Below are positions 6,948 to 53,455 of a DNA stretch of 64,000 nucleotides, one piece after another (positions within the stretch are counted from its first letter, which is position 1; each line of letters opens with the position of its first letter). Both the position numbers and the translations under genes were made by a program. Source of the DNA: Naegleria gruberi (taxonomy: Eukaryota); NCBI GenBank assembly GCA_000004985.1, contig GG738846.1; one strand, 5' to 3'. The notes under the pieces were generated by a model. It saw only the letters and a program-made list of their open reading frames with translations, was not told the DNA's origin and made no database searches.

Positions 6948-6957
6948 CCCGCCAAAA
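6948..6957 (+). promoter_or_regulatory. E2F-like GC-rich motif CCCGCCAAAA, 92 bp upstream of the 7049 gene.
   Basis: Read directly from the sequence. It is part of a recurring (C/G)CGCCAA(A/C) motif in upstream regions. Confidence 0.3.
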
Positions 6958-7048
6958 TTGCAAAAAACTTATCAAAAAAATTAATCAAACAACAATACGA
7001 GTGGGATTATCAACACATTGAATTATATTTATTTTCATTCATCATCTA

Positions 7049-9501
7049 ATGAGAAAGGCATCACTCACCAAAGATACTACCATACTTCCAAAAGTTCATG
7101 TTTCAGCAAGTGGGAGAAAGGGGTCTGTCAGCGCAAAGGCAGCCCCACCTTCAGAATTTTCAGCATCAACATCCGATACAGTCAAACAGGCTGAAAAAGC
7201 TCTCCCTCTCCCGAATATTAGAAACAAATCCCCAGAATCTCTCTCCCTCTCCTATGAAAAGGAATTAAGAATTGAAACACCAAAAACTGAGAAGGCCATG
7301 TTTGAAACTGGTGCTTACGGAATGGTGGATCTTAGACTTCCAACCAAACAACAACCTTCTAGTCCTCTAACAAAAACAATGCGGTCTCCTTCAAAATACA
7401 AAAGTCTTTCATTCAGTTTGGATATGGAGGAAAGGGATAACTATGACAGTTCTCTATTTTCTCAGGAATTATCATCTTTTACCCTCTCTCATAATCAAAT
7501 TGTTGAATCGTGCTGGGATTACCTTCACCAAACTCCTTCCAGTGGAGCTCCAATGTCTAGCGAGCAAGCCAAGGCTCTCTTTAGTTCTTTAAGCAAAAAG
7601 AGAGAAGCAAAAGAGAGTGATGTTTACGATGACATTCAGAGTATTATCTCGTCAATGAAATGTGAGGAAGAAAGGCAAGAAATTGACATTGAAAATGCAA
7701 AGAAAAAGGATATTTCAAAGAGGAAACCAAAAAAAACATCAAGTGTAAGAAAACAAGTTGACGAAAGATTGAAAATATTGTATCATAATCCAGATGAGTT
7801 GGAAAGACTTGAAAAGGACATCTCTCATTATGAGAAACACGCTAAGGAAATTGAAATGGAGAGAAAGGCTCATTCCATTTATGTACAAAGAAATAAGAAA
7901 GTTCCAGAAAATTTCAAAGAGATTAGAACCCAACACTTGAGACAGGAAGTAAGTTTTTGGAATACAAATTCTAATCATTTAATATTTTGTAGTTCAAAAA
8001 GCGTGACGAAAAAATAGCTCAAGCAAAGGGAAGAAAGGAACAAATCACAAAAGAGTTCCAGGAACGAAAGGAAAATTTGGCTTTGAAAGATGAAAAAAGA
8101 AGACAACTTGCCGAATACTTTAGAATGGAAACTGAGAATAAGGCTAAGGATGCAGAAATGTATTCTAAATGGTCATTTTTGGTTTCTCTATTATCAAGAT
8201 TTTTAGTGTTTGCAAGAGAACTCTTGAGAAGAAGATATCTCAGAAAAGAAGAGGAAAAGTTTAAGCGAGTTAAGAGGATTGCCTACACCAAATTATTACC
8301 AGTCATTTGGGCCAAGAGAAGCGAAAAGTGGAGACAAGCTTGGGATGTTTTCAAAAAGTAAGTTCAAGCTAATTTATATCATGTTTACTATTGAAATAGA
8401 CATTGGATTTTCTATAGATTGTGGATTGGTGTCAAGAAGAAGAAGGAGTCAACTATGATTATTAAATCATTCTTAAGAGAAACAAATATGTCCTTTCAAA
8501 TTGTCAGACAGGTTCACTTGTTTTGGAGTAAAGTGATTAAGGTGCAAAGATTTTTGAGAAAGTGGCACCAAATCAAACAAGCTCAAATCATGGTTCAAGT
8601 TCTCCAGTATTCAATAGTCGAAGCTAAAATGTTAAGAGGTATACCATTAAAGGGTGAATCCATAGCTGAAAACCCAAAAAAGAAAAAAGTGTTTGGACGA
8701 AGATTTTCTGGTCAGTTAACTTCAGCATTACTGAGGGAAGAAAGTAAATCTAACTCAACAACACCAATACCTACCGATGACCAAACAGATGAAAAGGAGG
8801 ATAAATTCAGATTCAAACTTCTCAGACTTACATTGGATAAAAAGAAGGAAATTATTTACTCTGATCTAAAGCAGAGAAGAAACGATTATATTACTGCCCA
8901 AAAGATTTACAAGAACAAACTTCAACAATATGACAGAAGAGTCCAACAGTTAATGTACATTCTACAAGCCAAGAGTGCTCTCAGCGGTGGAGATATGACA
9001 ATAGATCCTTCATCAATTAGAGACGAAAACGGTGAAATAATTGAAAAACCAAAACCTCCATATCTCAAAGTAATTTTGAGTGAAATTGAAATGAAAAGAT
9101 TGGTCAATATTGGGCAAAAAGAGCTCAAAGAAAAAGAAGACAAAAAGAGGCAGAAAATTCTGGCCAATTATGTGGAATTCAGTGAAAAACAAAACGAGTT
9201 GGATAAAAAGAGAGAAAAATGGGAAAACAAAGTTGCAAGTGGATTTGAAGAGATGAAACAAGTTCTCGGGTCATTTCTTGGATTTGAGCAATTATTATTG
9301 TCTCCATTCGAATCTGAAAAGAAGCCAACTTCAGTTACCCCAGTTGATCCGAATGGTAGTCTCAATTCTCTTAAGGGTGGTATTTCTCGCTCCTATAACA
9401 GCAGTCCTATTGTTTCAAAACCTCCTCAACCACCAAAGAAGAAGCCAACCCTTTCAAAGATTGGCGTTCAAAGTTCCACCACTTTAACAAAACGATTTTA
9501 A
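7049..9501 (+). CDS. Coiled-coil protein with a basic IQ-like segment, 3 exons (782 aa). Function unknown.
   Basis: Exons are 7049..7948, 7993..8357, 8418..9501. Introns are 7949..7992 (GTAAGT..TAG, phase 0) and 8358..8417 (GTAAGT..TAG, phase 2). They join the three ORF-track pieces in frame. The protein has long K/E/R-rich heptad regions and a W/K/Q-rich basic stretch (IVRQVHLFWSKVIKVQRFLRKWHQIKQAQIM). Confidence 0.6.
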
Positions 9502-9608
9502 TTATTCTAGTAAATATTTGAAATATCAAAATTGTTAACAATAAATATTTTTATTTAGCAATTTCTGATCAGAAACTTGTTGTTTAAATACAAAAACAAT
9601 GTCATTGT

Positions 9609-11932
9609 TTATTTTCCACCACGTTCTTTTGCCTTTTCTTGGGCAATCTTTTCCTTGATTGCATCCCAATTAGTTTCCATTTCTTGATATTGCAAGAATT
9701 CTGGCTTGTTTTCCTCTTGTCCTGTTTCCATCAAATATCTTCTTCTGTAGGCAATTACAGTATCAATATGTAATTTGAACCTCTTTGCCAAATCCAGAGC
9801 TCTGTCCCATTTATACAATTTTATATGCATCTTCACAGCTCTGTAAATTAATCTGGCTTGCAACAGAATGCTCTCTGCTTCATCAATATTTCTCATAAAT
9901 AAGGCAATGGCTGCATTCTTAGCTTCAGCTGAAGGAAGTCTCTTGATATTTGAAATGTATCTTAATTTGTCAACCTCTTCGAGTGCGGCTAACCCAACTT
10001 CAGCAGTATTGAGCTGGTTCAATTTAATTGCCATACCAACCAATGTAGCCCAAATGGCCTTATCTTTAACAAATCTACAAAGACGGATAGCTTGTTCCCA
10101 CTTTTTGTTTTCTATTAATTCATATAAAATTAATGGATATGGATGAACAGATTCTGTAATTACTGCTCCGTCAATTCTTCTAATATTGATCTTGGTATCG
10201 AAAAAGTCTCTAATGATAGATTGCTTTCCAATGTCATCCTTTTCAAACTTGACATAATCAAGCAAATCTCTGTCTACATATACAATCTTTGGATAATAGT
10301 AAACCAATAGCTGTCCTCCAGAAATAACAGACATCAAATCGGATTGGTCATTCCACATTGCAGAATCAACCATTGTTGCCAATTTGAAAACATCTCCTGT
10401 CTTTTTGGCCTGACTAATGTACAAATCTCTATTTCTATCAATAAATGCAATACATCTCTCACTCTTTGGGCCGAACTGGCTTACTTCGACTTGAGTTATT
10501 TCCATGTTATGCACAATCTTATCCAATTCTTTACCATTATTAACATCGAGCAACCTAATTGCTGTTGATTTGGCCTCTCCCTTATCAATGATAGCAATAA
10601 TATCATCGCTAAGACCAACAGCTTGATTATTCAAAAATTCTGTTCTTAAACCAGAGAATTTTGGATTACTCAATAATCTACCTTCATAGTTGTAAATTTG
10701 AATACCACTGAAATTGTCCATAGTAAGGAAGTTGTTTTTTGATTGCAAAATGAGATTGATATTATCCTTTACATCAAAAACATGAGGGGTTCCCAAGTTC
10801 TTGATATCATATACCCAAACTTGGGTCCATGTTGCAACAATTAATTTACCAAATCCTAGAGACCAGTTAATGACCTTATCACGGAACGAAATATCTTCAG
10901 ATCCTTCAGAGACGAGGTCAAAAACTTTAAGAGTAACATCATTTTCTAGCGAGACGAGTAAATTCTTCCATGCCAAGGATTTACCAACAATGTTTCCAAA
11001 ACAAACTCTTCCATTACCACCTCCTGCAGCAATTTGTGTTCCATCACTAGTCCAAGAAATATCTGTAATACTTCCTGTATTTGTTGTGTTTCTAGAGATT
11101 GTCCAACCTGATTTATCACAAATCTTGAGTGTATTGAAAGATCCAACAGCAAACAATTCACCATTAGGGGACCAGGATACACTTGTTATACTGTAATCAA
11201 ATGGAGTACTTGTATATAAAAGTCGTCCAAAATTGTCCCAAACCTTATATTTACCGTCTTCACCTCCACTAACAATCATGTTAGTGAGAGGATTCCAATC
11301 AACTTTGAGAATTTGAGAATCGTGAGCCTTCCATTGTATTTGTTTAGAGGCAACATGGATTGGCTTAATAACCAATTCTCTTCCATTTGTAAATAAAACT
11401 TCCTCACTAGATGGCCCCCAAGTTACTGAATAAACACTCTTTCCGACACTTGCTAGAGTGGATCGGAGCTGGCCACCTCTTGACCAAATTCTCAATACAC
11501 CATCTTCACCTGCGGTCACTAGGGCATTACCTTCATAACTCCAACGAATGGTAACTACGGCACCCTTGTGTGCGTTTGCAACTGTTTTTTCAATTCTTCC
11601 TGTTTTTGACACTAACCTAAATGATCCATCGGCACAACTTATTGCAAAAACATCTGATGTACTTGATGCTAATTTTTTGCTATATGATGGAAACCAGTGC
11701 ATATCGGTAACAATTACATCCAACTCACTCAATTTCGCTATTGGTTCTCCATTTAAATTCCATTTCCAAATAGATTTATCATCAGAAATACTAAATAATT
11801 GATTTTCTCCTCGTGACCATCCAACACAAGTGCAAACTTCCTTGTCTTTATAAATATTTATTGATTTAGAGGGTACAAGCTCAAAACACACTTACGTTGT
11901 TGTGCTGTAGACTCTTGGAGTTGTAGTTTCAT
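9609..11932 (-). CDS. IFT80: Intraflagellar transport protein 80 (IFT-B complex), 2 exons.
   Basis: Aligns along its whole length to IFT80 (N-terminal WD40 propellers plus C-terminal TPR-like region). Examples: CVGWS, WKAHD..ILKVDWNP, GELFAVGSFNTLKICDKSGW, IRLCRFVKDKAIWATL, IDTVIAYRRRYL. The true start is a 37-nt upstream exon at 11932..11896 (MKLQLQESTAQQ), joined through a 50-nt intron 11895..11846 (GTAAGT..AAAG). The ORF-track M at 11891 is a GTG codon. Confidence 0.85.
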
Positions 11933-11968
11933 TTTTTCTCTCTTTGTATTTCCCTCAATAATTTAAAA

Positions 11969-12013
11969 CCGCCAACAACAATCAGTAGACATTAAAAAAC
12001 GGTTGGCGGGAAA
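11969..12013 (-). promoter_or_regulatory. 8-bp inverted repeat (CCGCCAAC / GTTGGCGG, 25-nt loop) containing the E2F-like site TTTCCCGCCAAC (minus strand), 70 bp upstream of the IFT80 ATG.
   Basis: Read directly from the sequence: 11969-11976 ccgccaac and 12002-12013 gttggcgggaaa. The site lies inside the 3' UTR of the upstream gene. Confidence 0.3.
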
Positions 12014-12043
12014 TTGATGAACAATGAATCCAAATCCTTTTAC

Positions 12044-14679
12044 TTAAAGATAATCTGTGCCCATCGATGATTCTGTATTGTCATTATCATTAACTTCGGT
12101 CCTATTCATATTTTCTCTCATGTTATTGATAGATATTTCACAAAGACGATAGAGTTGGAAGGTTGCTTGGTCAATTGTGCCTGTTTGAGTTTGCTCATTG
12201 ATGATGGTATTTAATAAATCTCTTGCCTCCTCAAATTTACTATCTTCAAATAATTGGTGAGCTCCGTTATATTCATCCCATTTGTGTTTTTTCGTTTTCT
12301 CATGCAATTCATACATCCACTTTATAAAAACAATGAATAACATTTGAGATTAATAATACTTACCTCTTGGTCCTGTTGAATTATCTTCTCCTCTCCAACT
12401 TCATACAAGTTGTAAATTTCCTCTTCCCTTCCTTCCGTATTTAGGCAAGTGTTTGAAAAACTTGTTTGGCTATTGAGTAGAAAAACATTTCCAATAAATC
12501 TGTGATAGTACTTTTCACTAGTGGCCTTTTTGAAATATTCTGGAACAGTCATCTTGATATCTAATTCAACACAAATATCATTCATCTTTCGAATGGTTTC
12601 CATTACATGATCAGTATTAAAAGGAGTGAAAATAGTTGGTGTGGCAAGACCACATAATAACTTTTGTTGAAACGTCACCATTCTAAACTTGATTGGATGT
12701 TTGATTTTGATCTTTTCTAATTGATCTAAAAAGAAATAATTGTTAGAGATGATCTTATCAATTGGGAAAGTATTAGTGGCAAAATTATAAAAGAGACCAA
12801 TAACATTAGTAGAGAGAAATCCAGCCTTACACCCCTTCTGACTACACATTGTTGTTATCTTTTCACAACATTCCAATAAAAAGTGAATAGCTTCTCCCAT
12901 ATTTGAGGTGGCAACTTGATCAAGTCCTTCAAGTGAGACGCCAACACATATAACTTCTCTTTCTTCAATCACTTGTTGGTGTCTCTTCTTGTTGGCAAAT
13001 TTAAAGCTATTGGAGAGGAAAGATCCAATTCCTTCCTTATTTTGGGTTTTGGCGAATTGTTGGGAGGATTTCAAATCAATTGATTTGTTAATGGACAAAT
13101 CGGATTCATACTTGACAATGGGATTTTTCTGAATAAATGATTGATTATTACTCTGTGGACTCACCAACCTTCCAATCATTTCTCTTAAAAACTTGAATTC
13201 GTGGAGATTTCTCACGAGAGGTGTTTTTAAATTCTTCTTTCTTGGAACTCCATTAAAACTTTCCTTGATACCATACGTTTCGTCAACCATTTGAAAAATC
13301 TCATTAAGCGGCCTCAAAAAGAGCCAAATAAATGTAATTGAAAGAATAGCCAATACAATAAATAATATCAAGTTGGCTGCTAAGGTTATTAGCATTGGTG
13401 AAACGAGAGAACTTGTCAAACTGCTTGTTGGTATGGAGGTCACAAGGATTAAATCCAGTCTTTCACCTAAGCACATTCTCTTCATAAACAGGGTTTGGAT
13501 ACTATCAGCATCCTCTACTATTATCTGTTGGGAGCATTCTGTTGGCTTTGATTTCTTAATTTTCTCTATTTGAGTACTGGAAAAGTCAAATTTAGCACCA
13601 AGAACAGAGGTTGAGTTTGTATCCATGAGCATTATATTTCCATTAACTGAATAGTACATTGTTGGTACAAGAGCCTTTGCACACAGTCTATTCAAACTTA
13701 GATCCATTGCAAAGTAGTAAAAGTTAGACTTGGAATCTATCCACTTTTTTAACAGTCTAACAGTATTTCTTTCAGATACAAGTCCAACTATTTGAATTGA
13801 TTGAAAATTATCCCTCACTAGAGTATTCTCAATTCTTAACTCTGTATTAGAAAATGTTTTCGAAGAACCCATCTCACATTCACTCTTACTTGTCCAATCT
13901 TGACAAAAAGTTAGGGAATTGAGGGATTGGGATGAATTCATCATGTATAATTCTCCACCATAATAAAAAACTCCAACCTTATTTCCAAAAGCATCTCCAA
14001 TATAAATAGAACTAACGAGATCTAACTCCTTTTCAACTATTGCCTTGAATACTCCAAAAAAATTAAACTCTCCATTTTTCAAATCACTAATAGAATCATT
14101 AATCAAAATCTTCAATTGGCTAGTGACAGACTCCGATAATATAAGCATGTTATTAAGAGTGTTTTCAATATTTTTCTCTGAATTCAAAGAATCGAGTATT
14201 ACTATCTTGTTATTTGTATTTTTCAAAGTCAATCCAAAGGAGACTATCCACGAACAAGTCAACAAAATAAATAATAGAAATAATATAAAGCAAAACACAA
14301 CACTCAGCCAACATTTGACTGTTTGTTTCGATTGAAGCCATATAATACATTCTCCCTCAGAATTTTCCTTATTTTCTTCACCCATTGATGTATTCTCTTC
14401 TTCAGTTTCTTCATTGTTCGATTCTGGTGTTAGTACTCTTCGCGATATTTCAATAGACTGTTGTATTTCGGGTTGATGTTTTGCAGAGTTGACCATTTCA
14501 TTAGCAATATTCTTGTGATCGTTGGGGGAGGCATTTAAATTCGCAAAGACAGGTTCAGGTATTTCTCTATTCGAAAGAGAGAGCGAGAGTCGTCTAGATT
14601 TCGTTGAGGAAATACTGTGAGAGCTATTAGATGAGGTAAAGGGCATTACCAGAGTTGATGATATTGTACTGGGCTGCAT
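12044..14679 (-). CDS. Receptor-like type-I/II membrane protein (863 aa, 2 exons). It has a large extracellular domain between two TM helices and a cytoplasmic domain resembling a degenerate class-III nucleotidyl-cyclase homology domain.
   Basis: Exons are 14679..12364 and 12319..12044, with a 44-nt intron 12363..12320 (GTAAGT..AAAG, phase 0). TM1 is CWLSVVFCFILFLLFILLTCSWIV and TM2 is LITLAANLILFIVLAILSITFIWLF. The cytoplasmic segment VICVGVSLEGLDQ...STNVIGLFYN...FRMVTFQQKLLCGLATP...VMETIRKMN loosely follows the cyclase-homology-domain pattern but lacks the canonical metal-binding Asp residues. Confidence 0.5.
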
Positions 14680-14964
14680 ATTACAAGCAAGTTGGAATGA
14701 AATGGTGATAGAACGACCTTTTTTTGATCTATTTCTGAGGTGTACTGATATCTCTTTTCAATAAACTTCAAGAATTTAAAATAGGTAGACTATACTTTTT
14801 GTATTGAATAATTGTAATTTACAATTTCTTATTTTCAAAAACTGACTCTGAAATTATTGGTACAAAATCTTCGGCCTTATATAATTTGTGTTCGTTAATA
14901 TATTTCTCAACCTTATCGTGAACATAGTATTTTACAGAGTTGTTTCTTCGAACCAATTGTCTAA
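13874..14964. repeat. Copy A of a segmental duplication (1091 bp). Its partner is 19783..20496.
   Basis: 13874..14361 is near-identical to 19783..20270 (1 mismatch seen: A at 13949 vs C). 14739..14964 is identical to 20271..20496. The ORF-track pairs 14045..14335 = 19954..20244 and the shared 160-aa stretch in ORFs 12322..14679 and 19740..20303 confirm this. Confidence 0.9.
14739..14964 (-). pseudogene. Duplicated 3' fragment of the NMNAT gene (last ~49 codons plus 3' UTR), displaced next to the 5' end of the 12044..14679 gene.
   Basis: Identical to 20271..20496, which is the authentic NMNAT C-terminus and 3' UTR. There is no upstream NMNAT coding sequence here. Confidence 0.7.
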
Positions 14965-15624: not shown

Positions 15625-15658
15625 TTAATTGCGTCAAAAAGTGTTTTGACGCAATTAA
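15625..15658. promoter_or_regulatory. Perfect 15-bp inverted repeat (TTAATTGCGTCAAAA agtg TTTTGACGCAATTAA) ending 5 bp before the ATG of the F-box/LRR gene. It could be a 5'-UTR hairpin or a bZIP-type palindromic site (ATTGCGTCA half-sites).
   Basis: Read directly from the sequence at 15625..15639 and 15644..15658. Confidence 0.35.
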
Positions 15659-19272: not shown

Positions 19273-19782
19273 TTATTGGAATCCCCTCCAAAAACCAAAT
19301 ATTAAAACGAAGAGCTGATAGATACAAAACCACTGTGACTGGTTTAATAAAAAAAATGAACCATCTGTTGACCAGTCAAAAGATAAAGGGATATTTGGCT
19401 TTGTACAATATTTTAATGGCTGTTGTTTTGTGTTTAGGCTTCCGATGCTACCGTTTACTACTAAATGCTTACTAAGGTATGTTTTACACTATCGCTTAAT
19501 CCTAGAAATGAAGTGACTTTTCGGAACCCTTGTCTTAATCGGGATGGAGTTAGTAACAGATCCAGCCATCATTGTTGATAATGTTACAAATTATGGTTGC
19601 AAGAATGGTACTAAACCTTCATCTGAAGAGTACACCAGTGTAGCCGTGCAAACAATGTTACTTGATTATTTGAGATGCGTTTTTTGTCTTTTTACTCTTC
19701 CTGCCACTTTTATTTGGTATTCTTATTATTTTCAGGATACTAATACCTCAGACAATTACCATCCAGCAACAGGATCTGCATT

Positions 19783-20270
19783 TCACATTCACTCTTACTT
19801 GTCCAATCTTGACAAAAAGTTAGGGAATTGAGGGATTGGGATGAATTCATCATGTATACTTCTCCACCATAATAAAAAACTCCAACCTTATTTCCAAAAG
19901 CATCTCCAATATAAATAGAACTAACGAGATCTAACTCCTTTTCAACTATTGCCTTGAATACTCCAAAAAAATTAAACTCTCCATTTTTCAAATCACTAAT
20001 AGAATCATTAATCAAAATCTTCAATTGGCTAGTGACAGACTCCGATAATATAAGCATGTTATTAAGAGTGTTTTCAATATTTTTCTCTGAATTCAAAGAA
20101 TCGAGTATTACTATCTTGTTATTTGTATTTTTCAAAGTCAATCCAAAGGAGACTATCCACGAACAAGTCAACAAAATAAATAATAGAAATAATATAAAGC
20201 AAAACACAACACTCAGCCAACATTTGACTGTTTGTTTCGATTGAAGCCATATAATACATTCTCCCTCAGA
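19783..20270 (-). pseudogene. Internal fragment (about 160 codons covering TM1 and the start of the extracellular domain) of the 12044..14679 membrane-protein gene. It lacks both the start and the 3' two-thirds.
   Basis: ORF 19740..20303 has 160 aa identical to residues ~108-270 of ORF 12322..14679. Its 5' end (MKFIEKRYQYTS) is read from NMNAT 3'-UTR sequence. Confidence 0.7.
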
Positions 20271-20496
20271 GGTGTACTGATATCTCTTTTCAATAAACTT
20301 CAAGAATTTAAAATAGGTAGACTATACTTTTTGTATTGAATAATTGTAATTTACAATTTCTTATTTTCAAAAACTGACTCTGAAATTATTGGTACAAAAT
20401 CTTCGGCCTTATATAATTTGTGTTCGTTAATATATTTCTCAACCTTATCGTGAACATAGTATTTTACAGAGTTGTTTCTTCGAACCAATTGTCTAA
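19783..20496. repeat. Copy B of the segmental duplication (714 bp). It equals copy A with an internal 377-bp deletion (A 14362..14738).
   Basis: See copy A. The junction is ctccctcaga|ggtgtactga, with 1-2 bp of microhomology. Confidence 0.9.
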
Positions 20497-27450: not shown

Positions 27451-27460
27451 CCCGCCAAAA
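27451..27460 (+). promoter_or_regulatory. E2F-like motif CCCGCCAAAA, 54 bp upstream of ATG 27514.
   Basis: Read directly from the sequence. Confidence 0.3.
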
Positions 27461-27513: not shown

Positions 27514-28695
27514 ATGTGGGAAGTTATTAGGAAAAAGTATGATGGTTACGGTGATGGAGTTGTGGAGAACCAGGAAATAAATTTTGCAACAAACAACCAA
27601 CATATTGCCAAATTCAGCTGCAAACCCAATCCAAAAGAACAAGATCCAAACAGTTGCACTCCTGGGTATGGAGCTTTGCTGTACACTAAAATCAACAAAC
27701 TTACCCAATCAGATAATGAAATTTTGGTGATTAAGAGTGTTAGGAGTTTGCATGATTTATATAAGGCAGATACAAAGAATATTACTGCTAGTATCCTCTA
27801 CACGGAAGATAAACTCATTCCTAATCTCGTTGATTTACTCAAGAAGGATTTTGCTAGAGAGGATGTTTTGAGAACCCTGTGTAAATCTTACAAGGCGAAA
27901 ATTGCTCGTGACCAGGTCATTCCTCATGTTGAAGAAATTCAACAATTCATCCTAAACAATTACAAAACTGAAAACCCAACCAATATTTACCTCACTCTTA
28001 AACTATTTAAGGGAGTGTGTTTTGAAAAGGAGCCGTGTAAAATTGTTACTGACACAGGTGTCTTACCGGTTCTTACAATGAAATGTCTGAACCATTTTCA
28101 ACAGAAGGATATGAATCCAAAAGTGATGAAGAATGGATTCAAATTATTGAACAATTTGTTACAGGTTCCAAAGACCCATGTAGTTTTAGTGGAAGAGGAT
28201 CAAATTTTCTTACTAGTGGAAGACATATTTGAGCATCATCCAACCGATGAGAAAATACTGATTTCTCTAATGGAACACATTTCAAAACTGAGTTTTTATA
28301 CTGATGGTTTGACGAAATGTGGTAGATTTATCTATTATATAATGCCTCACCTTAGATCAAAGAATCAAATACTTTTACTAGAATCTATTAATGCCCTGTC
28401 ACATATTACTATTAGCGTAGAAGCCAAATGTCAAATTATGGATAGGGAAAGTCAAATTAAGAAGCAATTTATTGCAAATCTTGTTCATGTTTTTGATGGA
28501 TACCAGAAGGAATATCAAAATGATTACATTTTCATTAATAATTTGAAAATTATTTGTAATTTGGCAGAGAAGGACAGACCATCTCTTTTATTCCTTCTGC
28601 CAAAGATTATGGACCTTGTAGTTCTATCCACAACCAATGAAAGTGTGAAAGAAGAATTAGAAAATACATACCGTATCATCTCATATAAACCTTAG
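27514..28695 (+). CDS. Hypothetical protein (393 aa), helical/ARM-like. Function unknown.
   Basis: Clean ORF with genome-typical codon usage. An E2F-like site CCCGCCAAAA (27451..27460) lies 54 bp upstream. Confidence 0.4.
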   Translation: MWEVIRKKYDGYGDGVVENQEINFATNNQHIAKFSCKPNPKEQDPNSCTPGYGALLYTKINKLTQSDNEILVIKSVRSLHDLYKADTKNITASILYTEDKLIPNLVDLLKKDFAREDVLRTLCKSYKAKIARDQVIPHVEEIQQFILNNYKTENPTNIYLTLKLFKGVCFEKEPCKIVTDTGVLPVLTMKCLNHFQQKDMNPKVMKNGFKLLNNLLQVPKTHVVLVEEDQIFLLVEDIFEHHPTDEKILISLMEHISKLSFYTDGLTKCGRFIYYIMPHLRSKNQILLLESINALSHITISVEAKCQIMDRESQIKKQFIANLVHVFDGYQKEYQNDYIFINNLKIICNLAEKDRPSLLFLLPKIMDLVVLSTTNESVKEELENTYRIISYKP

Positions 28696-33410: not shown

Positions 33411-33420
33411 GCGCCAAAAA
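33411..33420 (+). promoter_or_regulatory. E2F-like motif GCGCCAAAAA in the 85-bp divergent promoter, immediately upstream of the TTL-like gene ATG.
   Basis: Read directly from the sequence. Confidence 0.3.
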
Positions 33421-33423: not shown

Positions 33424-36400
33424 ATGAATAGACTCCTCAGTACCTCTCACCAAAGCTCTGAGGCAGATTTAAATTTTGAAATCGGAACCCTCATTGATAA
33501 GGTGGCAACAGCACACTCCCGTTCTAAACAACGTAGTAATTCTGTAACAAAACCAAGGAAGATTAAATTGGCTGAGCCTGTGGAAGCTGCTATTGATAAA
33601 CAAGTAGAGGAGGATTTATTTACCTATCCATTCATATCGTATGTATTTAGTGATACATATTTTATTGGAATATTTATATTGATTTAATAGTAATGATCCA
33701 GCTAGTAATTTAGAAGATGATCAACTTCAGAGAAAATATCCAGTCACCAACTTGAATGCTGAAATAAGATTGAAAAAACAAAAGGAACTTGTAGAGAAAA
33801 TCAGTTTTTCTGAGCACAAATACCAATCCATCTTTGCTTCCTCCTTTCCCCTTAAACCTCTAATTCCATTTTTCAAGTATCTTGTCTCTCCAGTGAAGGG
33901 AAATTATCTTCCTGACCAACATAATATTGTCACAAAGTCTAAATTGCGAATATCATTACCGTACACAGTCGTTTTTGGAATTTCTGAAAGTCCAGTGTTG
34001 TACTATACAGATGTAGATGGTTATGTTGTAAGGGTTGATAATGTAGCCTTCAAGACGATAAAACAAAAACTAACTTATGGAACTACCTCAGATTCTGACG
34101 TGGCTGTTGTCATGAAAAGAGTAAGTATTACTGGAATTAGATAACTAATCTATTTAGTTGGTTCCTGGTGAAGTTACTACCAATGTTGCCTCTCTACTGA
34201 GTGTTAAGCAATTATTAACAATTTTGGATGCTCAAAATACTGGACTCTGTGTTTTCCAAAGATATGTAAAATCGAGTGGAAGCAAAGCATCAGTTGCCAG
34301 GATTATTTGGAATTCAACTAGACCTGTCTCTGGATATGTTCTTTCAAACAAAAAGACCACAACAGATCCATTTGAAAAAGAGGCAACAAATAGGCTATTA
34401 ACAAATACAGATAATGCAAATAATATTGATATTTTCCAATTGAAAGCAGCAGCTTTAGGAAGTATAGGAGTTCAAATGAACAATATTGTAAAATATTTGG
34501 AAAGTTTACCAAAACTTAAATGTAAATTCGAAACATTTGCTGCAGATTTTATCAGAGACGATGATGGGAGGTATTGGTTTATCCAAGCCAAAGCATTTAC
34601 AATTGAGGAAAAAAAGATCAAAAAACCAAGTTCGGAAGAGGAAATTCCAGAGGAAAGAAATATCAAAGCAAAATCATACTATCTCAAAAGTAAAGAGTGC
34701 AAAATGTGTCTCAATCTGTTCCCTCCCACTGATTTGAGTTATTCCATGACTCTAAAGATGATTTATGCTACTGAACAACACTTGAAGAGAAGAGCTGTAA
34801 AATTAGCTTGGTTTGATAGACCTGAATTTAAAGGAACATCAGAAACTTCAAGCTGGTACCAGGAGTTTAAGGTTTGCAAACCATGTTTTGACATGTACTT
34901 ACAAGAGCAAAAGCTTGCCAAAGTTGAGCTCCAGTTTGCAAAGGCAATTGGTATTCCAGTAACTAAGAAAATTAATGACGATGCTTCAATTTTGGAATCA
35001 TTACAGCATAGGTTGTCGAATCAAAAGAGGCTTAATTGCGATACAAAGGAAATGCCAAAAAGTTTATTAATGTACAGATTTATTGTTTACTTGAATGGTA
35101 TGTTGTTTCCCTATTTATTATTCATTTTTGTAATTTCAGAGGTCAGAAATGTTCCAGATAATTTATTAGCAGCTAAGAAAGTTCAACTTAAGGTAAAACT
35201 ATTTGATACTGAATTATGTGTTCCTTTGAAAATGGAAGATGTGGATCCAAAGAAGAAGATTGCAGTTGGAAAATTGAGGGTATTCTACTTTTTCATTAAG
35301 AATCAGACACAATTCAGAGTCTTTCTGAAGAACCAAAGAGACATCAAGGTTGATCTTTGTGTAAATGGAAATGAAGTAATTGGAAAGGCAGTTCTAAATT
35401 TGAAACAATTCGAGAGTGGGTTATTGGACAAGTTGGATTACATGGTCCTTTTTTCTGCTACTGGACTTAAACTTTGTTCCTTGAGAGCAACTATTGGATT
35501 TGTGCAAATGAGTAATAAGGACATTACAAATCTCAAATTGACAGAGTGCAATTCAGGTGTATATATTCCTCCAGCTGATTTTTATACCGCAGATCCTTTG
35601 CCAGACGAGTGGATGGAAATGATTCCAACCCTAAAAACCACAAGAGAGGGAGCAAGAGAGATTGATGAATCAAACAAGAGAGATAGACCACAATCAGCAA
35701 GAACTATGGTTCCAAAACTTGCCACATCCACAATTGAAAGAAGGCCATTCTCAGCCACTCTTCAGAAACGACCAACAACGCCTTCTCAAACTCTCACTAG
35801 AAGAGCAGCCATGAGTGCAACTCCAAGAAATACTTCTTCAACACCTTCCTACGCCAAATCTATCGGAAATTTGAAAAAGAGGCCAGCATCCCACAGTGGA
35901 CAAAGACAAGTTTATAATGGTTCTCAAGTGAGTGACTACTATGATTACACTTCATCAACCTTAACATCAGACCTCAATACCATAACATGGGATGAAAGAG
36001 ATACAAACACAAAGAAACCAACTGGAATTGATGCCTTCTTGGGTAATGTCACTTTTGGAACAGATAACACACCCGAAGTTTACAGGCCAGCCTCAGAGGC
36101 AAGAATGCATTTTGCTCATGATGAGCTTATTTGGGAATGGTCAATTAACCAGTTTACTGTTAAGGATCTCAAATCATCGGTTGACGAATGCTGGATATTA
36201 ACCATAGATATTTTTGGTGTGATGAAAAAGGAATACGAAAGTTTCCAAATTTTTAACGAAGGTCCACTAGTATTTGATATTGAAGATAAGGTTTTCTTGT
36301 CAGCCTCTCGAGACAACCTTAGCAGCTACTTTGACAAGGAAAGGATAATGAAAATAACCTTAAAACAAAAATATGTTAATAGAAATGAAATGGTTGCATT

Positions 36401-36710
36401 GTTTGATTTGAGGCAATTATTGAAAAGAGAGAATGCTCAAATCTTTTTGGAGGCTGCTATTACAGATGCTTCTCATGCAGAAGAGATTAGGTGTGGAATT
36501 GTTGGAGAGGATAGTGATCAAGAAAGTGATGATGAGGAGGAGAAATTAAGCAGAGATGAGATGAAGCTTGGTACGATTTCAACCTATTGCAGTTATACCA
36601 AGATGGCCAAGACGAATGATGTGGCAACTGAAAATGTTGAAGTCTTCCAAATTGAGGAGTATAGTATCACTTGCTTTAAAACTGTACCTGACTGGTTTGA
36701 GAAGAAATAG
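33424..36710 (+). CDS. Tubulin-tyrosine-ligase-like (TTL/TTLL family, ATP-grasp) domain protein with a long S/T-rich C-terminal region, 3 exons (1065 aa).
   Basis: Exons are 33424..33638, 33691..34120, 34158..36710. Introns are 33639..33690 (GTATGT..TAG) and 34121..34157 (GTAAGT..TAG, 37 nt), both phase-consistent. TTL-domain landmarks: CVFQRYV (IQKYL), KASVARIIWNS (RKFDIRSWVLV), VSGYVLSNKK (NIYLYREGVLR), FETFAADFIRDDDGRYWFIQ ([22 protein letters not shown]). Several catalytic-loop positions look divergent. Confidence 0.45.
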
Positions 36711-45565: not shown

Positions 45566-45657
45566 TTTTTTTTAATTTTTTAAAGGCTTTTGTTTCTTGT
45601 TACTCCCTGTTCAATTTAACGTTGATAATTTATTAATAATGGTGAGAGATTTACATC

Positions 45658-47277: not shown

Positions 47278-47281
47278 ATTA

Positions 47282-50200
47282 TTACTTCCAAACCTTAAGT
47301 ATACCATCTCTAGAGCTTGTCAATAGTAATGGTTGGAAGTGGCCTTTAGATACACCAGAGACAATCTTGATATCAGTAATTGTATCCAAATGATGAGTTT
47401 GTACAGGTTGAGAGAATGTTCCTCCCCTTCTACTGGCACTTGTAGATGTCAGAATATCACCCTTATTGAATGGAACAGCTTCTTCTGAGTAAACTGTGTA
47501 CTTGTCTTCCTTTTTGGCAGAATAAATAAATGCTTGTTGCTGTTGTTGAGCTCCACTGACAACATAACTTTGCTCAATAGTGTTAGTATCCCAGAATCTG
47601 ATAATACCGTCACTACTTCCAGAATAGAATGAGCCATCAAATTCATTGACATATAATGCATTTACATCAAAAGTTGGTTCTTCTTGGAAGTGTTTTGTTC
47701 TGTCCTTCATAATTTTACGAATTTCTCCAATAGCAAATCTATCACTTACACCAGTCAAATTTGATGTTACTGTAGTGGCATTTGTAGTCATTGGATTGGT
47801 ATTTGGAGTAGTGTTATTACTCTTTTGCTTTCTAGAACTATCAGAACATCTGAATTTGAGTAAGGTAGATTGAGTTTCCAAATTCCACAAATCTACTTCT
47901 CTATTTTGTGATGCAATATATACAGAAGGTGCCATACTGGAGGTTTTTTGGAGTGGAGATGCTTTACAAATTCTATTGATGGCACTTTCAGTAATTCTAT
48001 TATTTGTTACACTTATTTGATATCTCAAATCCCACAAAGTTACATAACCTCTCTTTGTGGAGGATAAGATCCAAGGCTCATTCATATCACCACAACAAAT
48101 TTCAGAAATTGGTCCTTGTTCAAGTGATTGTTTTGATTTCCATGAGAATGCCTCTCTTTCACATCTTGGATCAATACCAACAATAATACCATTTTGATTA
48201 CCACACACCAAGAGTGGTTGTTGATGATTTTGGAACGGTCTGATAACATTAATAGAAGCCTCTTGAGTCTTGGCTGTTTGTACAAATTTGGCACCAGAAT
48301 CGCCAATAGTTATAGTATACATGGTTGTACCCAAATCAGCACTGAATACGTGAATCCAACCCTTATCTGTACATGCTGCAATCAATGGTGAAGAAACATT
48401 CAATATACCCACTGAATTAACTCTACCTCCTCCCTGAATGATTGTATAGGTCATTTTCGAGTTCATGGCAAAGTCTCTCTCAGTACTTGTCAAGTCCCAT
48501 AATCTAACAGTGCCATCATTACCACCTGTTACAAACCAGCACAAACTATCGTGAACAGATATTTCATTAATAGATCCCTTGTGCTCTGTAGATTGACCAA
48601 ATAAATTACCATTTGGTCTCCACTTGGCAATATTGGCTGATTTGAGAGGTGAAGTTACAGAGGAGAGGTTAGAGGTGGCGCCAACAGGATTACTTGTGGA
48701 TGGATTACCAGATGATTGATTTGTTTTGAGTGGAAGAGTTTCTTCATCTTTCTTCTTACTACTTGGTTGTTTACCTGTGGAATTAGTTGATGCAGATGAA
48801 TTACTTGCAGAAGGAATGGAAAAGAATGTATTCCATTCGTTATTATATTGTTTGGATTGTGCTGATTTGGATGCTGTTTGATTATTAACAATTGAGCTCG
48901 ATTGTAAAGTAATGTAAGGACTTTCTATTGGTGTGAAATGACTTGTAAGTGGTAAGTTCAATTTGATAATATTGCTCGAATTGGAGTTATTAGAATCCAT
49001 ATTTTCTCCTGTATTTTCCCAACTCTTGGATTGTATGGCCATGGCAACTTGTGAAAGATATGGTTTGATAATCTCTAATTTTTTCAAGTCCTCTTCTGAA
49101 ATGTTTGGTATTTTGGATGATATCAAAAGTGAGAAGGATTCAAATTTTTGTTGAGAATTCAAATCTTCCATTAAAATCTTGATAGACTTGTCAAAAATGT
49201 CTCTTTGAAGCGATTGTTTCAAACTTTCCAAAAGTGAATATTCATAAACTAGGAGAATATCGTGCTCTAAATGAGGTTTTAAAATTTCAATCAAGAAGCA
49301 ACTAGTATCTGCCAATCCCAAAGTCTTACTAGCAGCAGAAAAGAATGCAACACTATTATATCTTATCCAAGTATTTGGATGGTAAAGTAAAAATGAAACC
49401 TTCTTGGCAATATCTACAATTGTTGATTTTTCAAACATTTGCAACTCACACAAAGTTACCAATCCATTAAGAGCTTGGTCAATAACAAACTCTTGTACAT
49501 CGTACAATGCTTGCATAATACAAGGTAAAATAAATTCCTTCAATGAAGTTGGACCAACATATACAGAAATGCCAACAATTTGTTCAAAAAAGGCATGTCT
49601 CAGTCTCCATTGACGAGAGTTTAAGAATGTAATGACCATAGGTAGTACAAAATCGTTTGTCTTTCTCCTACCATAAAACATACAAAATGGTGTAATATTC
49701 TTTAAAAGTGCTACCTTCACAGGTGTACATTGATCCATAGAAAGTTCAAGAACAATCGAGGCAATTTCATCCTGTAATGAATTCAAATCAGTATCATAAG
49801 TTCCCTTTACCATAACTTGGGTAGTCATATTTTGTTTGATGATCTGACTCATTTCCAAAAATCTTCTTGCTTGATAAGCGAGTAATGGCAAATTTTCAGC
49901 AAAAGTGACACGAACCAAATCTGACTTGTCAGTTGAAATTATTCTCAGTGCTGGTAGAATGTAATCATTAAATAAATTGGACTCACTAGCTGAAAATGCT
50001 GTTATTTTTGCGAGAATATAAGTAAGAGTGTCTATAGCTTTTGATTTAACAAGTGGGGCCTGATCATTCAAAAGTGAACATGTGTATGGAATGAGTCTTT
50101 CCAATTTGGTATAGTTGGATGAAAAATCAGCTAACTTTTTCATTAAATCTAAACCTTGAACACGAACACTAACACTTTGAGCATTTCTTACACTGGAACA

Positions 50201-51742: not shown

Positions 51743-51853
51743 AACACGCTTTTATTTGTTTCGAATTCATAATGCACTGCTCACGTTTATTCAAATAAGA
51801 CAAAAGCTAGCTAAAAATTTACAGTTTTAATACATTATTGGATCGTCTATTAA

Positions 51854-53407
51854 TTAATTTATTGAAGATTCCCAAGTTTTATCTTTGGCATGGAATTTCA
51901 AACTCAAATCCAACTGTATCATGTCTTGAATCTTTTTATCACAATTCTTAATTTCAATGATATTGTTGGAAGTAGAAATGCCACAACTTGGTGCAAACTT
52001 AGTTGGATGAATTTGAACTGATAAATTATTCAATTCTCCAATTCTATCATTCTTGATTGAAAATTGATTGCTAGAGTTTAGAATTATATTATCATTAATC
52101 GTTACTTGGTCCAAAACATTGATCTGCTCAGATTTCATTTCCAATGTGTTATTATTGTACAATAAAGTTATATCCAAACTATATACATATTCGGGTATAT
52201 CAATAATAAAATTATCAATAACCTTTCCCATCAAACGAGAAAAAAGCTCATCAGATTTACATCTAATAACTAAATTAGCATTATCATTGAAAGGAGTCAA
52301 TTGTAGATTGCAAATAATTAACTTATGATCATCATTCATAGTAACAAGAGAATTAACAGGCTCTACAGATAACTTGGTACCCACAGCAAGTACAAGTGTT
52401 GAATTTTCAACAAATTTAACTGCCTTTTTCCACAATTTTTCAGATAACTTTTCTCCAAAGTTTACTATCAAATCCTTAAGTGGTCCTCCACACTGTTCAC
52501 ACTTGTTTACAGTAAGGTGATCATCTTTGAAATTTTCATTCCTATTCAAAATATTCCTGTAAATACTTTCACTTGTAGGGTGAACAATAATATCTTGTCT
52601 AATAAATGTCTTGTCACATTTTTCGCAATGCTCTTTATAGCTATTGCCATGAATTTCAATAGTATCACTTTCACTGATACCACTCTTCCAATGGAGATTG
52701 TCACTATTCTGTGTGATAATATATTTGATATATCCCATGTCGTACAGTTTTTTAATGGACATATGGGTAAGAGTTGGAAAATATTTCAAATTATCACTAT
52801 CATTTGAATTTTTGGTGGTATCATCTTGTTTTAACCAAATACCATCCTTTCCTCTGTAGGTCTTTAAGCCAGCAGATGAACTTATTCCAGCACCTGTAAA
52901 TAAACAAATTTTTCCCTTATGCTCTTTAAACAAGTCTCCCAAGTGAGCTATCTTAGGTCTGAGAAATTCGTCATCCTCCTCAAATTCTACGTCACTATCA
53001 TAATCATTCTTTTCCAAATCACTATCACAATCCCTATCCTTCTTTTTTTTCTTTTTAGAGGATGAATCTTTCAGTGAATTCTTTCGTTTCTTTGGTGTTG
53101 TGTTTGATTTTACTGAACTTTCTGGTGTTTTTACAGTTTTTGATTCAGTTTTTTTTGGAGTAGGGTTGGATGTTTTCTTCTTTTTGGTTGGAGTTGTGTT
53201 GTAGACTGGTGAGTCACCATCGGAAGGGATGTTCTCCTCCTTCTTTGATTTGCTCTTTTTCTTATTCGATTTTACCCCTGTATCAATGTTCTCAGCTTTT
53301 GGTTTTTTAGAAGAAGAAGACGGTGTTTTGTCTGTAGTAGAGTTTGACTTTTTTCTCCTGGCTGTTCTGGGAGTTGTTGGTGTTGTGGCTGTTTGCTTTT
53401 CACTCAT
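51854..53407 (-). CDS. Sir2-family NAD-dependent protein deacylase, class IV (SIRT6/7-like), with K/S-rich termini.
   Basis: GAGISSSAGLKTYRGKDGIW (class IV RG..G.W signature). Zn-binding C..C...C..C tetrad (CEKCDK...CEQCGGPLK). Catalytic His in IHGNSY. VLAVGTKL NAD-binding block. Confidence 0.8.
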   Translation of the reverse strand: MSEKQTATTPTTPRTARRKKSNSTTDKTPSSSSKKPKAENIDTGVKSNKKKSKSKKEENIPSDGDSPVYNTTPTKKKKTSNPTPKKTESKTVKTPESSVKSNTTPKKRKNSLKDSSSKKKKKKDRDCDSDLEKNDYDSDVEFEEDDEFLRPKIAHLGDLFKEHKGKICLFTGAGISSSAGLKTYRGKDGIWLKQDDTTKNSNDSDNLKYFPTLTHMSIKKLYDMGYIKYIITQNSDNLHWKSGISESDTIEIHGNSYKEHCEKCDKTFIRQDIIVHPTSESIYRNILNRNENFKDDHLTVNKCEQCGGPLKDLIVNFGEKLSEKLWKKAVKFVENSTLVLAVGTKLSVEPVNSLVTMNDDHKLIICNLQLTPFNDNANLVIRCKSDELFSRLMGKVIDNFIIDIPEYVYSLDITLLYNNNTLEMKSEQINVLDQVTINDNIILNSSNQFSIKNDRIGELNNLSVQIHPTKFAPSCGISTSNNIIEIKNCDKKIQDMIQLDLSLKFHAKDKTWESSIN

Positions 53408-53446
53408 TTTTCTTTTTTCCTTTAATATTTAAATTCTATTATTCAT

Positions 53447-53455
53447 TTTCCCGCC
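53447..53455 (+). promoter_or_regulatory. E2F-like motif TTTCCCGCC, 40 bp upstream of the sirtuin ATG, in the divergent promoter shared with the 53776 gene.
   Basis: Read directly from the sequence. Confidence 0.25.

What the first reader, a model, noticed from the sequence alone, without database searches (positions are those of the whole stretch)
6948..53455. Recurring GC-rich E2F-like motif (C/G)CGCCAA(A/C) 40-95 bp upstream of several genes, including cilium-related ones
In a genome where intergenic DNA is strongly AT-rich, near-identical GC-rich decamers occur five times, all just upstream of ATGs. They are: CCCGCCAAAA at 6948 (coiled-coil gene); TTTCCCGCCAAC on the minus strand at 12002..12013 (IFT80, inside an 8-bp inverted repeat); CCCGCCAAAA at 27451 (unknown gene); GCGCCAAAAA at 33411 (TTL-like gene, divergent promoter); and TTTCCCGCC at 53447 (sirtuin, divergent promoter). 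The 8-mer CCCGCCAA is expected about 0.2 times by chance in this window at this base composition. The motif equals the canonical E2F/DP site TTTCCCGCCAAA. It may define a co-regulated set covering IFT80, the TTL-like gene and the coiled-coil IQ-like protein, that is, flagellar assembly and/or cell-cycle control.
Basis: partly seen in the sequence, partly recalled or inferred. Interest (0 to 1): 0.5.

Follow-up and report, generated by a model that had tools for sequence, protein, structure and literature searches.

The report
E2F-type promoter sites on flagellar genes
A short GC-rich DNA motif that looks like an E2F transcription-factor site sits just upstream of several Naegleria gruberi genes, mostly flagellum genes, and is conserved in related amoebae, which makes E2F a testable candidate regulator of flagellum building in an organism where none is known.

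Summary
The window is Naegleria gruberi. All five reported sites are at the stated coordinates, and there is a sixth: CCGCCAAC at 11969, paired in inverted orientation with the IFT80 site. CCCGCC occurs only four times in the 64 kb, each time 40-101 nt upstream of a start codon. Enrichment inside the window alone is suggestive, not decisive.

The decisive evidence is conservation. The motif recurs upstream of IFT80 in five heterolobosean lineages and upstream of the "unknown gene" in three Naegleria species, in promoters that otherwise do not align. It is not a dispersed repeat.

The core varies only as the E2F consensus TTTSSCGC allows (CCCGCC, GCGCC, CGCGCG). Published sequence sets list N. 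gruberi E2F, DP, DEL and RB with intact DNA-contact motifs.

The targets lean towards the flagellum:
- IFT80.
- A probable radial-spoke RSP14 (the "unknown gene").
- An ADIP/SSX2IP-family gene in N. fowleri and N. lovaniensis.

A SIRT6/7-like sirtuin and an uncharacterised coiled-coil gene also carry the motif.

Not shown: factor binding, genome-wide enrichment, or co-expression. Verdict: a real, conserved, E2F-type cis-element. The link to a flagellar regulon is plausible but rests on few genes.

The parts
6948..6957 (+). Site s1, CCCGCCAAAA (reverse complement TTTTGGCGGG). It lies 101 nt upstream of ATG 7049 of a three-exon coiled-coil gene.
   Evidence: Gene model.
6922..6927 (.). Palindromic GGCGCC core 26 nt upstream of s1. 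It may be a second E2F-type core in the same promoter.
   Evidence: GGCGCC occurs at only two places in the window; the other is at 48677.
7049..9501 (+). Coiled-coil gene with IQ-like segments, about 783-789 aa, with introns at about 7949-7992 and 8358-8399/8417. Function unknown.
   Evidence: No Pfam or PDB hit.
12002..12013 (-). Site s2, TTTCCCGCCAAC, a canonical E2F 8-mer (TTTCCCGC). It lies 71-81 nt upstream of the IFT80 ATG.
11969..11976 (+). Site s2b, CCGCCAAC. It is the inverted partner of s2, with 25 nt between the arms, and lies 37-44 nt upstream of the IFT80 ATG.
   Evidence: The same two-site layout is seen in L005 and L009.
9609..11932 (-). IFT80 gene (NAEGRDRAFT_77945). The start codon is at 11932, in a short first exon followed by a GTAAGT intron; this layout is conserved across relatives.
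27451..27460 (+). Site s3, CCCGCCAAAA, 63 nt upstream of ATG 27514.
   Evidence: CCCGCC is conserved in the N. fowleri and N. lovaniensis orthologous promoters.
27514..28695 (+). NAEGRDRAFT_45519, 393 aa. Probable radial spoke protein 14 (RSP14/RSPH14-like, helical repeat).
   Evidence: Weak structural support.
33411..33420 (+). Site s4, GCGCCAAAAA (reverse complement TTTGGCGC, a canonical E2F 8-mer). It lies 13 nt upstream of ATG 33424 and 72 nt from the divergent ATG at 33339.
33424..36710 (+). Three-exon gene, about 1050-1066 aa. It belongs to an uncharacterised family found in flagellated protists whose N-terminal domain matches kinetoplastid outer-dynein-arm docking-complex proteins (dDC4, TbDC65). 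The 'TTL-like' label is not supported.
53447..53455 (+). Site s5, TTTCCCGCC, a canonical E2F 8-mer. It lies 40 nt upstream of the sirtuin ATG at 53407 on the minus strand and 330 nt upstream of the PPR-gene ATG at 53777.
51854..53407 (-). Class IV (SIRT6/SIRT7-like) sirtuin, XP_002682943.1.

Best explanation
The recurring decamers are promoter-proximal binding sites for an E2F-family winged-helix factor. The candidates are the N. gruberi E2F-DP heterodimer and the DP-independent DEL (E2F7/8-type) protein, possibly modulated by the RB homologue. The invariant part is a CCCGC(C) or (C/G)CGC core, usually flanked by a 5' T-run or a 3' A-run, lying 13-155 nt upstream of the start codon. Some promoters carry it as an inverted pair.

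In Naegleria and its relatives these sites mark a gene set dominated by flagellar-apparatus genes: IFT80, RSP14, a relative of outer-dynein-arm docking-complex proteins, and ADIP/SSX2IP. Amoebae have no basal bodies or flagella and transcribe these genes only when they differentiate. The most likely role is therefore to couple these promoters to the switch from proliferation to differentiation. That could work either by E2F-dependent activation after cell-cycle exit or by release of an E2F/DEL/RB-type repressor.

Shown here: the motif exists, is confined to promoters, is conserved across species, has E2F-like degeneracy, and sits on flagellar genes. The E2F/DP/DEL/RB proteins are documented in the literature. 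Inferred: which protein binds, the direction of regulation, and the size of the regulon.
For: 1. Promoter restriction. All 4 CCCGCC in the 64 kb window are reported sites. In the Naegleria loci (N. fowleri, N. lovaniensis and an ENA Naegleria-like contig) every CCCGCC is intergenic and within 160 nt of an ATG.

2. Footprints.
- The IFT80 upstream regions of N. gruberi, L001, L005, Willaertia magna and L009 all carry the motif, although synteny is lost and the promoters otherwise do not align.
- An unbiased search for shared k-mers finds CCCGC as the only GC-rich 5-mer common to four IFT80 promoters. CCCGCC is the only GC-rich 6-mer common to the three RSP14 promoters. None of 2000 shuffles gives an all-G/C shared k-mer.

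3. E2F-like degeneracy.
- The cores seen are CCCGCC, GCGCC (s4 = TTTGGCGC) and, in L009, TTTCGCGCG next to TTTCCCGCCAA.
- N. lovaniensis has the 12-mer TTTCCCGCCAAA.
- Paired inverted sites occur upstream of IFT80 in N. gruberi and L005, and two tandem sites in L009.

4. The factor exists. The source data of Medina et al. 2016 hold NgruE2F (…[27 protein letters not shown]), NgruDP (…RRRVYDALNVL…), NgruDEL and NgruRB.

5. Target identity.
- IFT80.
- RSP14: profile E=1.6e-5 against T. brucei RSP14 and 1.4e-3 against Chlamydomonas RSP14, collinear from residue 1.
- dDC4/TbDC65-related family (E=1.4e-9 and 3e-4).
- ADIP domain, 52 bits.
- Controls: eight unknown proteins of the window without the motif gave no axonemal PDB hit. 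Five unknown proteins from related loci gave only generic leucine-rich-repeat similarity.
- My own post-hoc count for the window: 3 of 5 motif genes are flagellar against 0 of about 22 others, Fisher p about 0.003.

6. A 2025 review states that the transcription factors for cilia genes in Naegleria are unknown, because RFX, FOXJ1 and XAP5 are absent.
Against: - No binding, expression or genome-wide data could be obtained. The sample is about 7 promoters.
- Two targets are not flagellar or cannot be assigned: the SIRT6/7-like sirtuin and the coiled-coil gene.
- The ADIP site is shared with a divergent gene whose match to Rad51 is weak and below the Pfam cut-off, so a DNA-repair or cell-cycle reading of that site is equally possible.
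- Classical E2F targets are on in proliferating cells, the opposite of flagellar genes in amoebae, so a non-canonical mode has to be assumed.
- The N. fowleri and N. lovaniensis RSP14 sites keep CCCGCC but lack the T-run or A-run in the E2F register.
- Acrasis kona IFT80 has only TTTGCGC.
- In-window enrichment is not significant after correction for multiple testing.
- The RSP14 and docking-complex assignments rest on remote homology. The structure model is poor (pLDDT 54).
Confidence: 0.5

Rival explanations
1. These are ordinary E2F sites of a conventional cell-cycle, DNA-metabolism or chromatin regulon. The flagellar genes among the targets are a coincidence of a small sample, or reflect an ancestral coupling of basal-body genes to the division cycle.
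For: - Same motif evidence as the main explanation, and the E2F/DP/RB machinery is present.
- A nuclear SIRT6/7-like sirtuin carries a canonical site.
- The site conserved between N. fowleri and N. lovaniensis is shared with a gene that has a weak Rad51-like match.
Against: - No replication or cell-cycle gene in the sampled loci carries the site.
- IFT80 and RSP14 have no role in centriole-less, flagellum-less dividing amoebae (background).
- Three or four of about seven motif promoters serve the flagellar apparatus, although such genes are expected to be only a small fraction of the genome (my estimate, not measured here). The controls without the motif gave no axonemal hits.
Confidence: 0.22
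2. The CCCGCC core is bound by a different GC-box factor, for example a C2H2 zinc-finger (Sp/KLF-like) or another family. The resemblance to E2F sites is superficial, and the T/A flanks simply reflect AT-rich intergenic DNA.
For: - The strictly invariant part is only CCCGC(C).
- The RSP14 sites in N. fowleri and N. lovaniensis lack E2F-register flanks.
- No binding data exist.
Against: - The cores swap between CCCGCC, GCGCC and CGCGCG exactly as TTTSSCGC allows, and none requires GGGCGG.
- By my count over the sequences, about 12 of 14 sites have a T-run or A-run in the E2F register.
- A perfect TTTCCCGCCAAA occurs in N. lovaniensis.
- Inverted pairs resemble classical double E2F sites.
- The recognition motif of the N. 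gruberi E2F DNA-binding domain is intact, and from my memory of the human E2F4 sequence (not checked here) it is nearly identical to it.
Confidence: 0.18
3. The motif acts at the RNA level, as a sense-strand 5'-UTR element affecting mRNA stability or translation, rather than as a DNA-binding site.
For: Most copies are on the sense strand of the downstream gene, and s4 lies only 13 nt from the ATG, so it is probably transcribed.
Against: - In L009 both IFT80 sites are antisense.
- s5 is antisense to the sirtuin.
- The second IFT80 sites in N. gruberi and L005 are inverted.
- The distance to the ATG varies from 13 to 155 nt.
- Transcription start sites are unknown.
Confidence: 0.05
4. A chance or compositional artefact, or remnants of a dispersed repeat.
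For: In-window enrichment does not survive correction over all 8-mers. The motif was picked out after the fact.
Against: - It is conserved in orthologous promoters of five lineages for IFT80 and three species for RSP14, with 0 of 2000 shuffles matching.
- The flanks do not align.
- 0 of 100 shuffles reach the observed counts.
Confidence: 0.02

Closest known systems
Canonical E2F/DP binding site (TTTSSCGC; plant form WTTSSCSS / TTTCCCGCC) in promoters of animals, plants, Chlamydomonas and Dictyostelium
   Same: The sequence is the same, including the 12-mer TTTCCCGCCAA(A/C). The position is promoter-proximal. Inverted pairs occur. The core shows the same degeneracy (CCCGC, GGCGC, CGCGC). The organism encodes E2F, DP, an E2F7/8-like DEL and RB.
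   Different: The targets seen here are structural flagellar genes (IFT, radial spoke, dynein docking) plus a sirtuin, not replication or cell-cycle genes. Binding has not been demonstrated. These genes are silent in proliferating amoebae, which is opposite to classical G1/S E2F targets.
Multicilin/GEMC1-E2F4/5-DP1 programme of vertebrate multiciliated cells
   Same: An E2F-family factor is used outside the cell cycle to switch on building of centrioles and cilia in a differentiating cell. Naegleria likewise assembles basal bodies de novo during differentiation.
   Different: I did not look for geminin-family co-activators in Naegleria. The vertebrate programme mainly targets centriole-biogenesis genes and the downstream factors FOXJ1 and RFX, which Naegleria lacks. 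Here the sites sit directly on axonemal and IFT genes. Homology between the two programmes is untested.
RFX X-box regulon of animal and choanoflagellate ciliary genes
   Same: In concept: a short promoter-proximal motif shared by IFT and axonemal genes that could define a ciliary regulon.
   Different: The sequence and the factor family are different. No X-box is present in the window's promoters, and RFX is reported absent from Naegleria.
CDE/CHR (DREAM) late cell-cycle promoter elements
   Same: A GC-rich, E2F-like CDE core close to the transcription start.
   Different: No CHR (TTYGAA) element lies next to any of the five sites.

Membership tests
E2F/DP binding site | Sequence matches TTTSSCGC (or the broader WTTSSCSS) | tested here: met
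   TTTSSCGC matches at 12006(-), 33411(-) and 53447(+). WTTSSCSS also matches at 6949(-) and 27452(-). L009 has TTTCGCGC and TTTCCCGC. The N. lovaniensis site is TTTCCCGCCAAA. The N. fowleri and N. lovaniensis RSP14 sites match only the CCCGCC core.
E2F/DP binding site | Promoter-proximal location near the start of the regulated gene | tested here: met
   The sites lie 13-155 nt upstream of start codons in all cases. Transcription start sites are not known.
E2F/DP binding site | The organism encodes E2F and DP with the RRxYD DNA-contact motif | tested here: met
   Taken from the literature, not from my own search. NgruE2F (RRIYD), NgruDP (RRRVYD), NgruDEL and NgruRB sequences are in the source data of PMC4862756.
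E2F/DP binding site | Physical binding by E2F/DP (EMSA, ChIP, DAP-seq) | not testable with these tools
   No binding data were found for Naegleria (literature searches).
E2F/DP binding site | Enrichment at G1/S, replication and cell-cycle genes | tested here: inconclusive
   The sampled loci contain no such genes apart from one with a weak Rad51-like match that shares a site. Other N. gruberi loci could not be fetched.
E2F/DP binding site | Conservation in orthologous promoters | tested here: met
   IFT80 in five heterolobosean lineages and RSP14 in three Naegleria species.
Multicilin-E2F4/5 ciliogenesis programme | E2F sites on genes that build centrioles or cilia and are induced in a non-dividing, differentiating cell | tested here: inconclusive
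   Sites lie on IFT80, RSP14-like, dDC4/DC65-like and ADIP-family genes. Induction of these particular genes was not checked, because the expression papers are not held.
Multicilin-E2F4/5 ciliogenesis programme | A geminin-family co-activator (Multicilin/GEMC1) partnering E2F4/5-DP1 | not tested
   I did not search for geminin-family proteins in Naegleria.
RFX X-box regulon | X-box GTNRCC(N0-3)RGYAAC upstream of ciliary genes | tested here: not met
   There is no full X-box anywhere in the window. The single relaxed match, at 21560, is not in a motif promoter. RFX is reported absent from Naegleria.
CDE/CHR (DREAM) element | CHR TTYGAA a few nucleotides downstream of the GC-rich core | tested here: not met
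   No TTYGAA lies within 30 nt upstream or 60 nt downstream of any of the five sites.

The most novel reading that the evidence does not exclude
An E2F-family factor (E2F-DP or DEL, with RB) is the long-sought transcriptional switch for the de novo basal-body and flagellum programme of Naegleria, acting directly on IFT, radial-spoke, dynein-docking and centriolar-satellite gene promoters. On this reading the vertebrate Multicilin-E2F4/5 multiciliogenesis programme is a descendant or a convergent re-use of an ancient link between E2F and the cilium. A hint of depth: the only WTTSSCSS match in 6.8 kb around the IFT80 gene of the amoebozoan Planoprotostelium also lies in its upstream intergenic region.
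Probability: 0.27. Interest if true: 0.85.

Novelty: new member of a known kind. Interest (0 to 1): 0.6.

Why it matters
Naegleria builds two basal bodies and flagella from nothing within about an hour, by a burst of transcription. It lacks RFX, FOXJ1 and XAP5, and a 2025 review states that the responsible transcription factors are unknown.

A conserved E2F-type site on IFT80, RSP14 and other flagellar-apparatus genes names a concrete candidate factor. It can be tested with existing genomes, published expression series and recombinant proteins.

If confirmed, it would tie ciliogenesis control in a deeply diverged protist to the same factor family that drives centriole amplification in vertebrate multiciliated cells. 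If instead the motif marks a conventional E2F regulon, it would still be, as far as my literature searches show, the first cis-regulatory element described for heterolobosean promoters, and useful for annotation and for designing expression constructs.

Tried and rejected
- Retrieving more of the N. gruberi genome failed. The look-up of encoding contigs has no record for N. gruberi gene models.
- The third and last protein search used a chimeric query (coiled-coil protein + the 1051-aa protein + NgruE2F) and returned nothing. Orthologous promoters for sites s1, s4 and s5 therefore could not be obtained.
- A metagenome scan with the 1051-aa protein found no relatives.
- The expression papers (Fritz-Laylin & Cande 2010; Kennard 2025) are not held, and no paper mentions the gene identifiers.
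- The 'TTL-like' annotation found no Pfam support.
- I considered the sirtuin as a SIRT2-type tubulin deacetylase and rejected this: its best matches are SIRT7 and SIRT6.
- Dispersed repeat rejected.
- ncRNA or tRNA genes near the sites rejected: none were found.
- X-box and CHR elements are absent.
- The structure prediction of the RSP14-like protein was of low confidence (pLDDT 54). The fold search gave only weak armadillo-repeat hits. The top two are unnamed chains of a bovine sperm axoneme map, which is at most a hint.
- Synteny-based footprinting failed, because IFT80's neighbours differ in every species.

Full report
**Identity of the window.** The IFT80 open reading frame at 9609-11891(-) is 100% identical to Naegleria gruberi NAEGRDRAFT_77945, which lies on a contig of about 1.0 Mb. 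Other proteins in the window also match N. gruberi RefSeq entries exactly. G+C is about 33%. The window is gene-dense, with short intergenic regions.

**The observation.**
- There is a sixth copy, CCGCCAAC at 11969-11976(+). It forms the inverted pair with TTTCCCGCCAAC at 12002-12013(-) upstream of IFT80.
- CCCGCCAA occurs 3 times against 0.08 expected. SCGCCAAM occurs 6 times against 0.66 expected.
- The hexamer CCCGCC occurs only four times on both strands of the whole 64 kb, and all four are reported sites.
- Distances to the start codons are 101, 71-81 (plus 37-44 for the second IFT80 copy), 63, 13 and 40 nt.
- A k-mer scan of the non-coding DNA that did not presuppose the motif ranks CCCGCCAA as the best 8-mer that is not a simple repeat (3 found, 0.041 expected, p about 1e-5). 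That would not survive correction over all 8-mers. The window on its own is therefore suggestive, not conclusive.
- The flanks of the sites share nothing, so this is not a dispersed repeat.
- No tRNA or Rfam family lies nearby.

**Conservation upstream of IFT80.** This is the decisive evidence. I fetched IFT80 loci from relatives and found the following.
- A Naegleria-like ENA contig with 88% protein identity (L001) has CCCCGCCAAAA 63 nt upstream of the ATG.
- A second metagenomic relative with 86% identity (L005) has TTCCCGC and, 30 nt later, TTTGGCGG. This is the same two-site inverted layout as in N. gruberi.
- Willaertia magna has TTCCCGCC at -30.
- A more distant relative with 62% identity (L009) has TTTCGCGCG and TTTCCCGCCAA side by side on the opposite strand, about 90-100 nt upstream.
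- Acrasis kona has only TTTGCGC.
- Gene neighbours differ in every species, and the promoters otherwise do not align.

**Conservation upstream of the gene at 27514.** The N. fowleri and N. lovaniensis orthologues both keep CCCGCC in the upstream intergenic region.

**An unbiased test of the footprints.** The only GC-rich 5-mer shared on the sense strand by four IFT80 promoters is CCCGC. The only GC-rich 6-mer shared by the three promoters of the second gene is CCCGCC. None of 2000 shuffles yields any all-G/C shared k-mer.

**A third conserved site.** In the 21-kb N. fowleri and N. lovaniensis loci, the only other CCCGCC sits in a divergent promoter. It reads TTTTTTCCCGCCCAAT in N. fowleri and CTTTCCCGCCAAAG in N. 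lovaniensis. It lies 35-40 nt upstream of an ADIP/SSX2IP-family gene and 55 nt from a gene with a weak Rad51-like match.

**What binds it.**
- The sites fit the E2F consensus. TTTSSCGC is matched at three window sites, and WTTSSCSS at five.
- The variation seen between sites and between species (CCCGCC, GCGCC, CGCGCG) is the degeneracy that E2F tolerates. It is not that of an Sp1 GC-box (GGGCGG).
- The source data of Medina et al. 2016 (PMC4862756) contain N. gruberi E2F, DP, DEL (E2F7/8-type, with two DNA-binding domains) and RB. The RRxYD DNA-contact motifs are intact.
- Binding itself is an inference.

**What the target genes are.**
- IFT80 is clear-cut.
A profile of the three Naegleria orthologues hits T. 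brucei RSP14 at E=1.6e-5. The alignment starts at residue 1 (MWxVIRK…), the two proteins are nearly the same length, and there is a collinear second segment. The profile hits Chlamydomonas RSP14 at E=1.4e-3. A low-confidence model is all-helical, and its two best fold matches are chains of a bovine sperm axoneme map. That is weak support only.
It belongs to a family of at least 320 proteins. The named members come from flagellated protists: Gefionella, Diphylleia, Barthelona, Ploeotia and Blepharisma. A 22-member profile hits the kinetoplastid outer-dynein-arm docking-complex proteins dDC4 (E=1.4e-9) and TbDC65 (E=3e-4). The gene is therefore cilium-related, but not demonstrably a tubulin ligase.
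- The sirtuin is SIRT6/7-like.
- The coiled-coil gene (7049..9501, two introns) has no detectable relatives.

**Controls and tally.**
- Eight unknown proteins of the window whose promoters lack the motif gave no axonemal PDB match.
- Five unknown proteins from related loci resolved to an NSUN2-like methyltransferase and a generic leucine-rich-repeat protein.
- In the window, 3 of 5 motif genes are flagellar against 0 of about 22 others. My Fisher test gives p about 0.003. This count is post hoc and the sample is small.

**Mechanism.**
- Amoebae have no basal bodies or flagella and induce these genes by transcription during differentiation.
- If E2F-type proteins bind here, they must work non-canonically. 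Two routes are possible: activation after exit from proliferation, as E2F4/5 does with Multicilin in vertebrate multiciliated cells, or release of an E2F7/8-like or RB-linked repressor.
- I cannot tell these two apart.
- No X-box and no CHR element accompanies the sites.

**Literature.** Searches found no report of E2F sites, or of any promoter motif, in Naegleria. A 2025 review says that the regulators of cilia genes in Naegleria are unknown.

**Limits.**
- I could not fetch the rest of the N. gruberi genome.
- My last protein search, a chimeric query, returned nothing, and a metagenome scan found no relatives. Sites s1, s4 and s5 therefore remain untested for conservation.
- Genome-wide enrichment is untested.

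**Verdict.** The motif is a real, conserved, promoter-proximal cis-element of E2F type. Its association with flagellar-apparatus genes is supported by several independent but small pieces of evidence. Factor identity and regulatory logic remain to be shown.

Noticed in passing
window 13870-14169 vs 19779-20078; 14734-14964 vs 20266-20496: A recent segmental duplication (99-100% identity). The ORF at 19740-20303(-) is a partial copy of the 785-aa membrane protein gene at 12322-14679(-). The second repeat copies that gene's upstream region next to the cytidylyltransferase-like gene.
   Followed up: partly
window 11895-11932 (-): The RefSeq IFT80 model (697 aa) appears to be truncated at the N-terminus. 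A short first exon (MKLQLQESTAQQR, then a GTAAGT intron) starts at 11932 and is conserved in Willaertia, L001, L005 and L009.
   Followed up: partly
window 53703-53708: A GGCGCG core (CTAGGCGCGGTC) lies 74 nt upstream of the PPR-gene ATG at 53777 (exon 1 at 53777-53812, followed by an intron). It may be a further E2F-type core without a T-run.
   Followed up: no
window 33424-36710, and proteins P0129-P0278: This gene belongs to an uncharacterised protein family with no Pfam domain. Named members come from diverse flagellated protists. Several cysteine columns are invariant in the 22-member alignment. The N-terminal domain is related to the kinetoplastid outer-dynein-arm docking-complex proteins dDC4 and TbDC65.
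   Followed up: partly
L010 1788-1800 (Planoprotostelium fungivorum): The only WTTSSCSS match in the 6.8-kb locus (TTTTGGCGG) lies in the 248-nt intergenic region upstream of IFT80, about 40 nt from a divergent gene. This may hint that the E2F-IFT80 link reaches beyond Heterolobosea, or it may be chance at roughly 0.04.
   Followed up: no
L002 20767-20775 (Willaertia magna): A perfect E2F 8-mer (TTTTCGCGCC) lies inside an intron of a RhoGEF/armadillo gene. The other Willaertia matches (14017, 17472) lie in coding sequence.
   Followed up: no
L002 vs L003 (Willaertia magna contigs JBEGDK010000164 and JBEGDK010000068): Two contigs carry the same IFT80 locus but have different distal flanks. L003 is more GC-rich (0.32 against 0.26) and holds 10 CCCGCC. 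This could reflect haplotypes, a duplication, or foreign or mis-assembled sequence.
   Followed up: no
window 778-3174(-), 4735-6828(+), 53777-54740(+): Three pentatricopeptide-repeat (PPR) protein genes lie within 64 kb.
   Followed up: no
L006 9846 and L008 9885: In N. fowleri and N. lovaniensis the CCCGCC upstream of the RSP14-like gene lies closer to a divergent Methyltransf_16 gene (38-59 nt) than to RSP14 (116-155 nt). Which gene it serves there is ambiguous. In N. gruberi the upstream neighbourhood looks different, though the immediate upstream gene was not identified.
   Followed up: partly
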